A stretch of DNA of 64,000 nucleotides from the human T2T-CHM13v2.0 reference genome, Homo sapiens: NCBI RefSeq assembly GCF_009914755.1, contig NC_060947.1; one strand, written 5' to 3'. A model generated the notes under the pieces. It made no database searches, was not told where the DNA came from, and worked only from the letters and a program-made list of their open reading frames with translations. The position numbers and the translations under genes are program-made. Below, in pieces: positions 1-64,000 of this stretch (position 1 is the stretch's first letter; each line of letters opens with the position of its first letter).

Positions 1-174
1 TTTTTCAGGTACCCTCTTGTGATAGGATGGTCACTATGGCAATAGTGGAGGTGCCTGTCTCCATGAATCATGGATAAGTCAGGTCAGAGTTGCAAGGATT
101 TTAGTGGAGGTAAATAGGCCTTAAACATAGTTAGAGTCAGAGGAAGGCTCATCTCTTCCTAAAGAGATCACTTA

Positions 175-500
175 AGCCAGGCATGGTGATTCACACCTGT
201 AATCCTAGCACTTTGGGAGGCTGCGGTGGGAGGATCGCTTGAGCCCAGGAGTTTGAGACCAGCCTGGGCAACATTGGGAGACTCTGTCTCTACAAAACAA
301 AAAACAAAAAGCAAAGAAACAAAAAAAGCCAGGCATGGTGGCATGTGCCTGTGATCCCAGCTACTTGGCAGGCTGAGGTGTGAGAATCGTTTTAGCTTAG
401 AAGGTCGAGGCTGCAGCAAGCCATTATTGCACCACTGCACTCTAGCCTAGGCCACAGAGAGAGACCCTGTCTCAAAAAAAAAAAAAAAAAAAAAAAGAAA
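175..500 (+). mobile_element. AluJ SINE
   Basis: Dimeric Alu with AluJ-type GGAGGATCGCTTGAGCCCAGGAG, poly(A) tail, TSD core AGAGATCA at 163-170 and 508-515. Confidence 0.95.
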
Positions 501-734
501 GGAAGAGAGAGATCATTCAGAGGGGGAAAATGGACAAGACTCCAAGGTGATACCTCATTACCACCAGCAATCTCTGTGATCCATTTGCTCATTCAAGAAT
601 CCTGCCTTGCCACATTACATCTGAGGATGTCATGTCTAGCTTCAGCCAGGACATGACTTAGGAATTTATCCTCTGTGTTTTCAAATATGCATTTAAAAAT
701 ATGTGTATATTAATTATTTTTTGTGTTACTTACA

Positions 735-922
735 CTTTCTATGTGCCAAGAACTATACTAAGGACTTTACATAGATTATCTCATTAAAATTCTTATATCA
801 GCCCTGTGAGTCATGCAAGAAATTGAAGCTCAGAAAAGATTGCCCAAGGTCACACTGTTAATAAGTGACAAAGTTGAGATTTGAAACTACGTTTATCTGA
901 CTCCAAAGCTCATGCTTATAAC
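735..922 (-). mobile_element. MIR SINE
   Basis: MIR core reverse complement: TTGCCCAAGGTCACAC..TAAGTGAC..GATTTGAA..TCTGACTCCAAAGC. Confidence 0.85.
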
Positions 923-1629
923 TATTCATTCACTTGCTCATTAATTCATTCATTTATTCATTCAAGTATTTGTTGAGACAATACGATGAGAAAGACATGG
1001 TCTAGGTATTGAGCATACAATAGGGAACATGAGTAAGACGAATAAAAAATCTCTGCTCTCATAGAAGTTTTACTCTAATGCAGAAGGCACACAATAAACT
1101 ACATAAGTAAGTAAAGTATATTATATAGTATATAAGATAATTGTAAGTGCCAAAGGGAAGAAAAGCAGACAAGTGGCAATATAATGTTTTTGGAGGGGAG
1201 GAAGTAAAAATAAGGTGGCCAGGTAAGATCTCATTAAGCAAGCGACATTTGAGCAAAACCCAGAAGTAAGAGATGGAGCAGCCATTCAGATGTCAAAGAG
1301 AAAGGTATGTAAGCAAGTGCAAAATCTCTGAGTTGGTAGCGGACTTGGTGTACTAGAGGACTAGGAAAGCAGCCTTTGTGATTGCAATGGAGCAAATGCA
1401 GGGGAGAGTAAAAGGAAATAAAGTCAGAGAGGTAATTGAACGACCAGATCATACAGAGCTTCTAGGACTTTATATCTTACTCTAAGCGAGACTGAGGTTT
1501 GACATCTGTCTTAGGTTATAACAGCATTGTCCCGATCACTAAGTAAGAATAAGCCAAAGGGAGGCATAGGCAGAAGTAGGGAGAATGGTTAGGAATCTAT
1601 TGAAATAATTCAAGCAAAAGATGATGGAG

Positions 1630-62344: not shown

Positions 62345-62580
62345 ACAAAAACAACTAACATTCATAGATAACTTACTAAGTGCTAGACACTATACAAAGC
62401 ATTTTATAGAGATTACCATATTTAATCTTCACAAGCACCCTGTGATCTATGGGATCTTTTTAATCTCTATTTTTATAGATGAGGAAATTGTGGAATAAAA
62501 AGTTTAGCAGTTCATCCAAACTGTCAGCTAAATAAGTGGCTGAGGCAGAATTCAAACCAGGTTTAAATAACTCGCTCAAG
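62345..62580 (-). mobile_element. MIR SINE
   Basis: TTTAATCTTCACAA..TTTATAGATGAGGAAATTG..GAATTCAAACCAGG. Confidence 0.85.
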
Positions 62581-63014
62581 GCAACTCAACTTGTATATAA
62601 TGGAATCAAGTTGTAACCAGGCCCTTTCAAGCTTTTAAGTAATTTTGCCACTTTCTGCTCTGTTGCCTGGATTATAAATTCTCTTGCTCTACCCAGCCCA
62701 TTTGGACTGGCATTTAGATTTAATTGTTTGACTGGCTTTGGTTTCAGTTTCTCCCCAGAATTTTGCCTTTTGGATTGCCCGCCTCTGTTCCACACCCCGC
62801 AGGCTGCAGTCCAGCTCTGCCCTATCTCTTCACCAATGGAAGTTTTAGTGATAGTATACTCCAGTCTAAAACCAATGTCTTAGAGCTCCAACTGTCTGGG
62901 AGGAGAAATTCAACATTATCTCAGAAAAAAAACTTGACTAAGGGAGAGATATGGAGGCAGACCCACCCTGGTAGATTCTGCAGGAGACCTTCTGGGTTAT
63001 ATGGTCCCAAGTAA

Positions 63015-63222
63015 AATAATAACATTAATCCTATGCTCTAAGTACAGGGATAAATACTTGACACTAATTGTTTCATTTAAATCTTCATAATAATCCTTTG
63101 AGGTTAGTACTATTTTGATCTCTAAGATATTAGGAAACAAATGTTTACATAAATTAAGTGACTTATCTAATGTTGAAGAGCTGGGTTTTGGATTCAGATC
63201 TCTCTGACCGTAAGTCCTACAT
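63015..63222 (-). mobile_element. MIR SINE
   Basis: TTTCATTTAAATCTTCATAATAATCCTTTGAGG..TTAAGTGACTT..GAGCTGGG. Confidence 0.7.
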
Positions 63223-63229
63223 CACTAAA

Positions 63230-64000
63230 CTCTACAATTAGCAGATACAATCCAAAGCAGGCTGCAAATGGATGCCTACTTGTAGCAGCACTTGGATGAG
63301 ATCCAGGCCCATGCAGTGAGAGCTCTGAAAGGCCGAGAATGTCAGAGTTGCCTACAATATGAGAGTGGATTCTCATATTTCCCAGCTGGAAAGGCTCAAA
63401 CACAAGTAATTCTCTTGTGCTATGATCCCACCGTGCTGGCCACTGTGATTCATTCAAGTCAAAACCTTGAACATGGTCTTTTTAGCAGTGGCTCCATCTC
63501 TGATACAACATCTCTAATGAGTCATCATTTATGATAGCTGCTTCCAAGTCATGGAGTAAACAAGTAGATCCAAGAGCCTTCCATATCCACTTCAGATTAC
63601 TGAACACCTGAGGAATACCATCTCACAGTGAACTATTTCTAGTATATTCCCTTTTAATGACCCCACACATTCCTGGCAGTGGCAGATGTCTTGAAAAAAA
63701 TGTATCATTCATTGTATACTCAGCCTATCTACTCCAACTGTGGTTATTTTGTTTATCAAAAGAATCTTCTGGTACCAAATTATCCGCCTATGTGATTTCT
63801 GATTATTACCTGCAATTATCATTCTGATTTTAAAGGGCACTGTTCAAGGCCCTTCACATTAGTATCCATTTGTCAACTTCCTACCACTAGTAGACACAAA
63901 GGTCAGATTGGAGATATCAACCAAGTACTCACTTGAGGAGTAAATCTCCTATTTCACCTTTTACTAATAACACACTGGTTTCCTCTCCTTACTATACAGA
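63230..64000 (+). mobile_element. Possible Gypsy protease/RT N-terminal remnant G
   Basis: LADT..MDAYL, AVRALKGR (cf. VxALDGR), VILFIKR..IRLC near 63742-63793. Confidence 0.4.

What the first reader, a model, noticed from the sequence alone, without database searches (positions are those of the whole stretch)
1..64000. Dense graveyard of ancient Ty3/Gypsy retrotransposons forming the backbone of the window
Seen: after removing Alu/L1/L2/MIR/MaLR/hAT copies, most remaining DNA gives ordered Gypsy pol or gag motifs in about eight remnants, with at least four separate sushi-type RT catalytic regions (~4650, ~9600, ~16810, ~61375). Established: Gypsy elements are long extinct and sparse in eutherians, and the PEG10/RTL (SIRH) and PNMA gene families derive from them. 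Inference: such packing suggests a preferred landing site, for example ancient heterochromatin targeted by chromodomain integrases, or a fossil piRNA-cluster-like trap. Parts may already be annotated as MamGyp-int/MamGypsy2-I.
Basis: partly seen in the sequence, partly recalled or inferred. Interest (0 to 1): 0.8.

Follow-up and report, generated by a model that had tools for sequence, protein, structure and literature searches.

The report
A few decayed Gypsy retrotransposon fossils
This gene-free stretch of the human X chromosome holds about four very old, broken copies of a Gypsy-type jumping gene, which is a real but modest local cluster and not the backbone of the region.

Summary

Searching with 30 natural Ty3/Gypsy polyproteins gave 7 matches at E<0.01 in the window. 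Sixty shuffled or simulated copies averaged 0.02 (maximum 1). All seven lie at the named sites:
- A: 4686-5050, minus strand, first half of the reverse transcriptase (RT).
- B: about 9590-9711, minus strand, a short and weak RT piece.
- C: 15685-17488, minus strand, RT, then RNase H, then integrase.
- D: 60492-63959, plus strand, same order as C.

A fifth fossil (E, integrase) lies 12 kb beyond the window. There were none in the other 248 kb of human DNA I could test.

The motif forms are Gypsy-type, not those of four human endogenous retrovirus (ERV) pol loci checked here. C and D match each other at DNA level (E about 1e-8). Both carry a MIR-like SINE at the same RT position, so they may be ancient duplicates rather than separate insertions.

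Not supported:
- gag remnants
- "about eight" remnants
- "most remaining DNA": the fossils span about 5-10 kb of roughly 35 kb that has no younger repeat copies
- any Pfam or PDB match
- LTRs
- a chromodomain

The fossils are inert. Whether the local density is unusual for the genome could not be measured. Interest is low to moderate.

The parts
4686..5050 (-). Fossil A: first half of a Gypsy-type reverse transcriptase (profile columns 272-395). The catalytic motif, expected near 4641, has decayed.
   Evidence: Two register-consistent blocks: 4910-5050 (15 of 30 references) and 4686-4817 (18 of 30), best E 2.3e-4. The alignments show the '..SP...LF.KK....R.C' block and the 'K..F....G....IPFG..A' block. 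No DNA-level copy elsewhere in 324 kb.
9590..9711 (-). Fossil B: short RT fragment with LDDIL at 9594-9608. This is the weakest of the four.
   Evidence: Motif found. A 4-reference cluster at 9679-9711 covers columns 370-380, but at E=8.9. 9595-9632 is 82% identical over 39 nt to C at 16801-16839. C-versus-B local alignment gave z=6.3, reached by 0 of 100 shuffles. The RNase H-like HSP at 8985-9119 lies in a self-complementary stretch (8890-9152), and 8653-8866 is another interspersed repeat, so I do not count them.
15685..17488 (-). Fossil C: RT (17488-16648), start of RNase H (16464-16310) and integrase (15949-15728), colinear on the minus strand.
   Evidence: Clusters of 4, 13, 11 and 4 references at columns 259-331, 379-417, 438-456 and 529-581. 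Profile hit at 15728-15949 to positions 776-848. Four-HSP chain with P0091, score 40.5, against a control maximum of 31.8. Motifs 'PC.D...LN.IT', 'YLDDILFY' and 'KKCRF....VEF'. DNA homology to D.
16894..17081 (-). MIR-like SINE inserted in C directly 5' of the catalytic block, in the same sense as the element.
   Evidence: nhmmer matches to an abundant old repeat. The alignment shows it. The name MIR is recalled, not given by a tool.
60492..63959 (+). Fossil D: RT first half (about 60492-60681, weak), RT second half (61333-61627), end of RNase H (61956-62144) and integrase core (63735-63959). Same family as C.
   Evidence: Clusters of 15, 7 and 11 references at columns 391-440, 436-483 and 867-941. 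Best profile hit of the window, 12.9 bits, at 61339-61512. nhmmer: 61346-62057 matches 16843-16164 at E=1.6e-8 and 5.8e-7 in 324 kb. 60492-60866 matches 17327-16893 and 63435-63751 matches 16002-15685 more weakly. The stretch 61340-62300 has no other DNA match in the genome with the tool at hand.
60682..60975 (+). MIR-like SINE in D, at the same RT position and in the same relative orientation as the one in C.
   Evidence: With this copy as query, 23 copies (itself included) were found in 324 kb.
60976..61335 (.). Second old interspersed repeat in D, between the MIR-like piece and the catalytic block. It is absent from C.
   Evidence: 39 other genome places match 60940-61335 at 65-83% identity (40 of 206 candidates scored, one being the window itself).
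62338..62573 (-). Another MIR-like insertion in D, between RNase H and integrase.

Best explanation
The window holds the decayed internal (pol) regions of a few Ty3/Gypsy-class LTR retrotransposons.

How they arose: the elements entered the ancestral mammalian X by reverse transcription and integrase-mediated insertion. They then lost all coding capacity through neutral mutation. Later they were broken up by MIR-like SINEs, other old repeats, L1 and Alu.

What is there: four RT-bearing pieces survive, A, B and C on the minus strand and D on the plus strand. A fifth, integrase-only piece lies 12 kb downstream of the window. C and D belong to one family. They most likely descend from a single MIR-interrupted copy that was duplicated in inverted orientation, so the number of independent insertions in the window is probably three.

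What they do: nothing now. There are no open frames, no detectable gag and no LTRs.

Shown: homology to Gypsy pol, colinear domain order, Gypsy-type motif forms, the C-D DNA homology and the nested older repeats.
Inferred: the age, the duplication and the lack of function.
For: Signal against controls:
- tblastn with 30 Gypsy polyproteins gave 7 HSPs at E<0.01 in the window, against 0 in six controls and a mean of 0.02 (max 1) in 60 further controls.
- At E<1 the window gave 47, against a mean of 5.8 and a maximum of 11.
- Register-consistent clusters hit by 11 or more references: 6 in the window. The 60 controls had 6 in all, never more than 1 each.
- A profile of the 30 references scanned over 160-residue windows gave 7 hits of 5 bits or more (max 12.9), against 0-1 (max 5.0) in six controls.
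- Colinear chains scored 37-43, against a control maximum of 31.8.

Real-DNA controls at the same search size: 100 kb upstream gave 10 single HSPs (E 0.12-0.9), and chr8 60 kb gave 2. The 100 kb downstream gave one true cluster, E.

Specificity: no HSP at E<1 falls on the window's L1 RT open frames (26.7-27.2, 42.3-42.7 and 51.7-52.7 kb).

Class:
- PFG occurs in 23 of 30 Gypsy references, C.DYR.LN in 22 of 30 and [TS]DH..L in 18 of 30.
- The RT stretches legible in three of the four human ERV pol loci read LPQG/LPRSF, QYVDDLLL or YIDDIML, and none of the four loci has C.DYR.LN or [TS]DH..L.
- The fossils carry the Gypsy forms.
- ERV frames do not hit the sites.

Family and age: C and D are homologous at DNA level. 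MIR-like and other old repeats lie inside C and D.
Against: - No Pfam family at E<=10 in any of the 24 read-through frames around the four sites.
- The PDB sequence search with the D frame gave only immunoglobulin noise.
- phmmer against 1.84 billion proteins gave no Gypsy protein at E<=0.001.
- The word-indexed search gave none at E<=10.
- Each single HSP is weak; the best E is 2.3e-4 for a 64-kb search space.
- Fossil B rests on a motif, four noise-level HSPs and a 39-nt DNA match.
- No gag, protease, LTR or chromodomain was found.
- The ERV comparison used only four degraded human loci.
- With D's MIR-like copy as query, C's copy did not come up at E<0.01. The duplication idea therefore rests on position and orientation alone.
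Confidence: 0.8

Rival explanations
1. The whole window is a dense graveyard of about eight independent Gypsy insertions. They accumulated because the site was a preferred landing place, either heterochromatin reached by chromodomain integrases or a piRNA-cluster-like trap.
For: Five Gypsy-type fossils lie within 76 kb. None lies in the other 248 kb tested (100 kb upstream, 88 kb further downstream, 60 kb of chr8). A and B lack the MIR-like insertion shared by C and D, so several independent copies did land close together. One further weak colinear chain at 55184-57456(-) scored 20-22, which is within the control range.
Against: The middle 18-60 kb has no supported remnant. gag was not found. 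No chromodomain was found. C and D may be one insertion duplicated. The real-DNA control is small and the window was picked for this feature, so the enrichment is after the fact. Nothing bears on chromatin or piRNAs.
Confidence: 0.12
2. The remnants are ancient endogenous retroviruses (ERV1, ERVL or similar), not Ty3/Gypsy elements. They are picked up only because retroviral and Gypsy pol are homologous.
For: Gypsy references do detect human ERV pol strongly (blastp E 1e-12 to 1e-28). The Pfam families RT_RNaseH_2 and Integrase_H2C2 hit many human loci beyond RTL1 and NYNRIN, which I take to be mostly ERVs. The domain order is the same in both groups.
Against: Read-through frames and ORFs of four human ERV pol loci gave no hit at A-D or E. 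The fossils carry the PFG, C.D...LN, KC.F and DH..L forms that the ERV loci lack.
Confidence: 0.08
3. Chance: short RT-like words in AT-rich non-coding DNA, seen because the reader looked for them.
For: All general-purpose searches were negative. Single-reference HSPs at E 0.1-1 occur about once per 10 kb in control DNA.
Against: None of 66 synthetic controls approaches the window on any measure. The hits fall at the pre-named coordinates, at the right profile columns and in colinear order. C and D match each other over about 700 nt.
Confidence: 0.02

Closest known systems
Mammalian Gypsy fossils of Repbase/RepeatMasker (MamGyp-int with MamGypLTR1-3; X1_LR to X4_LR; LTR85, LTR88, LTR104_Mam)
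   Same: Ancient, non-coding traces of Ty3/Gypsy elements in the human genome. Kojima 2018 (PMC5753468, passages read) describes them as only a small fraction of mammalian genomes. The internal pol sequence is of Gypsy type.
   Different: I could not compare with their consensus sequences, because no Dfam or Repbase library is held. Membership of a named family is therefore open. The PNMA-type gag tied to MamGyp-int (PMC9934673, passage read) was not found here.
Domesticated sushi-type genes (RTL1, PEG10, RTL9 and others)
   Same: They come from the same superfamily and are also concentrated on the X. An RTL9-like open frame lies 0.4 Mb upstream. The references nearest to RTL1 (P0091, P0092) are among the better matches to C and D.
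   Different: Those are intact, selected genes made mostly of gag. Here there is only broken pol, with no open frame. RTL1's pol part gave only noise against the window.
Human endogenous retroviruses (ERV1, ERVL internal regions)
   Same: LTR elements with the same order PR-RT-RNase H-IN. They are also present as decayed copies.
   Different: The RT motif forms differ, and the four ERV loci tested do not hit the sites. The fossils are older than the MIR-like copies that interrupt them.

Membership tests
Ty3/Gypsy (Metaviridae) LTR retrotransposon | Similarity to Gypsy pol polyproteins beyond chance | tested here: met
   The window exceeds all 66 synthetic controls, and the hits sit at the four named sites.
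Ty3/Gypsy (Metaviridae) LTR retrotransposon | Gypsy-type RT motif forms (C.DYR.LN, PFG, Y.DD, KC.F) and DH..L at the end of RNase H | tested here: met
   One search shows them, partly decayed, in A, C and D. One search shows how often they occur in the 30 Gypsy references and that C.DYR.LN and DH..L are absent from the four human ERV loci (PFG and KC.F turn up there only as stray matches outside the RT).
Ty3/Gypsy (Metaviridae) LTR retrotransposon | Domain order RT, RNase H, integrase on one strand | tested here: met
   C: columns 259-581, then 776-848. D: columns 391-483, about 600-660, then 867-941. Protease was not seen.
Ty3/Gypsy (Metaviridae) LTR retrotransposon | Match to the curated Pfam domains RVT_1, RT_RNaseH, rve | tested here: not met
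   0 families at E<=10 in 24 read-through frames. This covered the RT sites only. The integrase parts were not given to Pfam.
Ty3/Gypsy (Metaviridae) LTR retrotransposon | gag (capsid/nucleocapsid) upstream of pol | tested here: not met
   (12 gag queries, noise only). (PNMA and Retrotrans_gag profiles: no place in the window).
Ty3/Gypsy (Metaviridae) LTR retrotransposon | Flanking long terminal repeats | tested here: inconclusive
   nhmmer of the flanks of C and D found only MIR-like cross matches. Pairs this old may be undetectable.
Chromovirus branch / sushi group | Chromodomain at the integrase C-terminus; nearest relatives among sushi-like elements | tested here: inconclusive
   One noise-level HSP (E=6.4) to a chromodomain region. 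P0091 and P0092 rank 1st and 4th of 30 for C+D, but the margins are small.
MamGyp-int / MamGypsy2 / X_LR (named human repeat families) | DNA similarity to the family consensus | not testable with these tools
   No Dfam or Repbase library is held. The families are known to me only from passages of PMC5753468.
Endogenous retrovirus (Retroviridae) | Retroviral RT motif forms and best match to ERV pol | tested here: not met
   The panel was only four human loci.

The most novel reading that the evidence does not exclude
The Xq23 interval from about 4.7 kb to 76 kb (window coordinates) is a true nest of early-mammalian Gypsy insertions. At least four independent copies (A, B, C/D, E) landed within about 70 kb, at a density tens of times the genome average. 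That would point to regional targeting or to unusually good retention on the ancestral X. It would fit with the X-linked excess of Gypsy-derived genes; RTL9 lies 0.4 Mb away.
Probability: 0.2. Interest if true: 0.5.

Novelty: new member of a known kind. Interest (0 to 1): 0.3.

Why it matters
Gypsy elements died out early in mammals and left few traces, and several of those traces became genes (PEG10, RTL, PNMA). A verified local nest of pol fossils would give a place to ask where these elements landed and why so many survivors are X-linked. As it stands, the result mainly shows two things. A tool-free reading of raw DNA did pick out real, extremely decayed RT remnants. The larger story built on them was overstated.

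Tried and rejected
Searches that gave nothing:
- Pfam on read-through frames: nothing.
- PDB sequence search with the D frame: only immunoglobulin light chains at E 0.01-0.3.
- Protein comparison of the sites with each other: only the short motif.
- Whole-genome DNA and protein searches with D: only D itself; the tool did not even find C.
- RTL1 and NYNRIN as queries: noise, the same as on the reversed window.
- phmmer of the D frame against 1.84 billion proteins: two hits, neither a Gypsy protein. P0121 is a 202-residue unnamed prediction that matches 61409-61956 in two frames at 42-48% identity. It is probably the same locus in another genome; its source carries no name.
- Word-indexed search for longer proteins: none at E<=10.

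Methods that failed or were uninformative:
- A profile scan of whole 21,000-residue frames failed because of the length penalty (maximum 4.3 bits). I replaced it with 160-residue windows.
- Genome-wide Pfam scans meant as a census were swamped by other elements: RVT_1 apparently by L1, and RT_RNaseH_2 and Integrase_H2C2 by loci I take to be mostly ERVs. SH3_Tf2-1 found practically nothing in the human genome.
- A random-genome control of ten 60-kb regions could not be fetched. Only one (chr8) and the two 100-kb flanks were obtained.

Leads I dropped:
- The extension of A to 638-3089 and of B to 5880 comes from single noise-level HSPs across L1 and other repeats.
- Extra similarity between the MIR-like copies of C and D was looked for and not found.
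- Papers: searches for MamGyp-int, MamGypLTR, MamGypsy2, X1_LR and 'LTR Gypsy' turned up no description of a Gypsy cluster at Xq23.
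Full report
**What was claimed**

It counted about eight remnants and four RT catalytic regions, near 4650, 9600, 16810 and 61375. From this it inferred a preferred landing site.

**First checks were negative**

Pfam found no family at E<=10 in any of the 24 read-through frames (stops read as X) covering 600 bases either side of the four sites. A PDB sequence search with the best-looking frame (61150-61974) returned only immunoglobulin light chains at E 0.01-0.3. 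phmmer of 61297-61974 against 1.84 billion proteins gave two hits, neither a Gypsy protein. The word-indexed search for longer proteins gave none at E<=10. General tools therefore see nothing here.

**The motifs are nevertheless there**

In the six-frame translation, LDDIL occurs at 9594-9608(-) and 16800-16814(-), and LEDILIY at 61375-61395(+). In 100 second-order Markov shuffles of the window these patterns averaged 0.04-0.05 occurrences. No such motif survives near 4650.

**Class-specific references give a clear signal**

I took the pol part of human RTL1 from the genome and used it to fetch relatives. Thirty of them, P0091-P0120, are full Gypsy polyproteins. Three that I scanned have RVT_1, RT_RNaseH, Integrase_H2C2, rve and SH3_Tf2-1; two of these also have a chromodomain and a protease, and one has gag.

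tblastn of the 30 against the window gave these counts:
- E<1: 44 HSPs, against 3, 5, 3, 7, 7 and 5 in the reversed window and five block shuffles.
- E<0.01: 7 HSPs, against 0 in all six.
- In 60 further controls (30 block shuffles, 30 Markov simulations), the count at E<0.01 averaged 0.02 with a maximum of 1. The count at E<1 averaged 5.8 with a maximum of 11, against 47 for the window.

A profile built from the 30 references and scanned over 160-residue windows gave 7 hits of 5 bits or more (best 12.9). The six controls gave 0-1 (best 5.0). Colinear HSP chains scored 37-43, against at most 31.8 in any control.

No HSP at E<1 falls on the window's L1 RT open frames, so the references do not simply react to any RT.

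**Where the signal lies**

I required that different references hit the same place at the same alignment column. Six clusters then have 11 or more of the 30 references:

| Place | Strand | Profile columns |
|---|---|---|
| 4910-5050 | - | 272-318 |
| 4686-4817 | - | 351-395 |
| 16776-16892 | - | 379-417 |
| 16648-16704 | - | 438-456 |
| 61333-61512 | + | 391-440 |
| 63735-63959 | + | 867-941 |

The 60 synthetic controls together had six such clusters, never more than one each.

Weaker, colinear pieces fill in the picture:
- 17237-17488 (columns 259-331)
- 16310-16464 (columns 529-581)
- 15728-15949 (profile positions 776-848)
- 61484-61627 (columns 436-483)
- 61956-62144 (end of RNase H)

C (15685-17488, minus) and D (60492-63959, plus) therefore each run RT, RNase H, integrase in order. 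A (4686-5050, minus) is the first half of an RT.

B is weak. It has the motif, a four-reference cluster at E=8.9, and a 39-nt stretch 82% identical to C. The C-versus-B local alignment score was reached by 0 of 100 shuffles. Its supposed RNase H and integrase pieces lie in a self-complementary stretch and in another interspersed repeat, so I dropped them.

**Gypsy or retrovirus?**

The alignments show the forms '..R.C.DYR.LN..T', 'PFG', 'Y.DD', 'KC.F' and 'DH..L', partly decayed.

| Motif | Gypsy references with it (of 30) |
|---|---|
| PFG | 23 |
| C.DYR.LN | 22 |
| [TS]DH..L | 18 |

The RT stretches legible in three of the four human ERV pol loci read LPQG or LPRSF/LPQRF, with QYVDDLLL or YIDDIML. 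None of the four loci has C.DYR.LN or [TS]DH..L. ORFs and read-through frames of those loci gave no hit at A-D or at E. The panel is small, but everything points to the Gypsy class.

Whether the copies are 'sushi-type' cannot be decided. The two references nearest to RTL1 rank 1st and 4th for C+D, by small margins. RTL1 itself gives only noise.

**C and D are related copies, perhaps duplicates**

nhmmer aligns 16164-16843 with 61346-62057 on opposite strands, at E=1.6e-8 and 5.8e-7 in a 324-kb search space. Two weaker colinear blocks lie on either side.

Both copies carry a MIR-like SINE. The name is recalled; 23 copies, the query included, were found in 324 kb. In both, the SINE has the same sense as the element and sits directly before the catalytic block: C 17081-16894 and D 60682-60975. 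In D a second old repeat follows at 60976-61335, a family with 39 other scored matches at 65-83% identity. A and B are continuous across that position.

A shared insertion is explained most simply by an old inverted duplication of one already dead copy. Recurrent insertion into the same target sequence is the alternative. The two MIR-like copies are not more alike than other pairs, so the point stays open.

The nested repeats show that the fossils are older than those insertions. I infer an age of the order of 100 million years, but did not measure it.

**What is not there**

- Twelve gag queries gave 3 noise hits, against 0-7 in controls.
- The PNMA profile scored all 40 of its genome candidates and none is near the window. 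The Retrotrans_gag profile scored all 7 of its candidates and none is in the window.
- No LTR pair was found around C or D.
- There is no chromodomain beyond one noise-level HSP.
- The middle 18-60 kb has no supported remnant. Much of it is L1 and Alu.
- About 28.8 kb of the window has younger repeat copies and about 35 kb does not. The fossils span about 5 kb of this on a strict count and about 10 kb on a lenient one.

**Is the density unusual?**

With the same search size, the 100 kb upstream gave only 10 single HSPs (E 0.12-0.9) and 60 kb of chr8 gave 2. The 100 kb downstream gave one real cluster, E. It lies at L018:1673-1969 (window coordinate about 75.7 kb) and is an integrase zinc-finger and core piece hit by 14 references, best E 0.002.

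That makes five fossils in 76 kb and none in the other 248 kb. This is suggestive, but the window was chosen for this feature and the control is small. The genome-wide searches on hand could not give a census.

Kojima 2018 says only that mammals keep a small fraction of Gypsy elements (PMC5753468, passages read). I found no paper describing a cluster here.

**Verdict**

It is overstated in number, extent and gag content. The elements are inert Ty3/Gypsy-class pol fossils of a kind already catalogued for the human genome. A local nest remains possible, at about one chance in five. The landing-site mechanism is untested.

Noticed in passing
L018:1673-1969 (C23:109381673-109381969; window coordinate about 75.7 kb), minus strand: A fifth Gypsy-type fossil just outside the window. 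It covers the integrase zinc-finger and the start of the core ('..WWP..', '..PLPI..', '..MD..', '..FVVE..'). It was hit by 14 of 30 references, best E 0.002. ERV frames do not hit it.
   Followed up: partly
window 61409-61956: An unnamed 202-residue predicted protein (P0121) matches two frames of fossil D at 42-48% identity. It looks like the same decayed locus predicted as a gene in another genome, which would fit an old, shared sequence. Its source gives no name.
   Followed up: partly
G000:C23:108902203-108902364 and C23:107841639-107842056: An RTL9-like open frame (1389 residues, Retrotrans_gag) lies 0.4 Mb upstream of the window, and a broken PNMA-like fossil lies 1.5 Mb upstream. Of the 12 strong PNMA matches in the genome, 9 are on the X.
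   Followed up: no
window 8890-9152: A stretch of about 260 bases that matches its own reverse complement (nhmmer E about 1e-4). It may be an old inverted-repeat element. It explains away one RNase H-like match.
   Followed up: no
window 54446-54775: A long purine-rich simple repeat that reads as runs of E, K, R and G in three frames.
   Followed up: no
window 40400-46000 (minus) and 50300-54250: Large L1 copies with ORF2 pieces open for up to 277 and 286 residues. The second region joins an inverted endonuclease part (50893-51639, minus) to an RT part (51667-54241, plus).
   Followed up: no
window 55184-57456, minus strand: A weak colinear chain (protease to end of RT, 3 references each, chain score 20-22) that could be a sixth remnant. 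It is within the range of the controls.
   Followed up: partly
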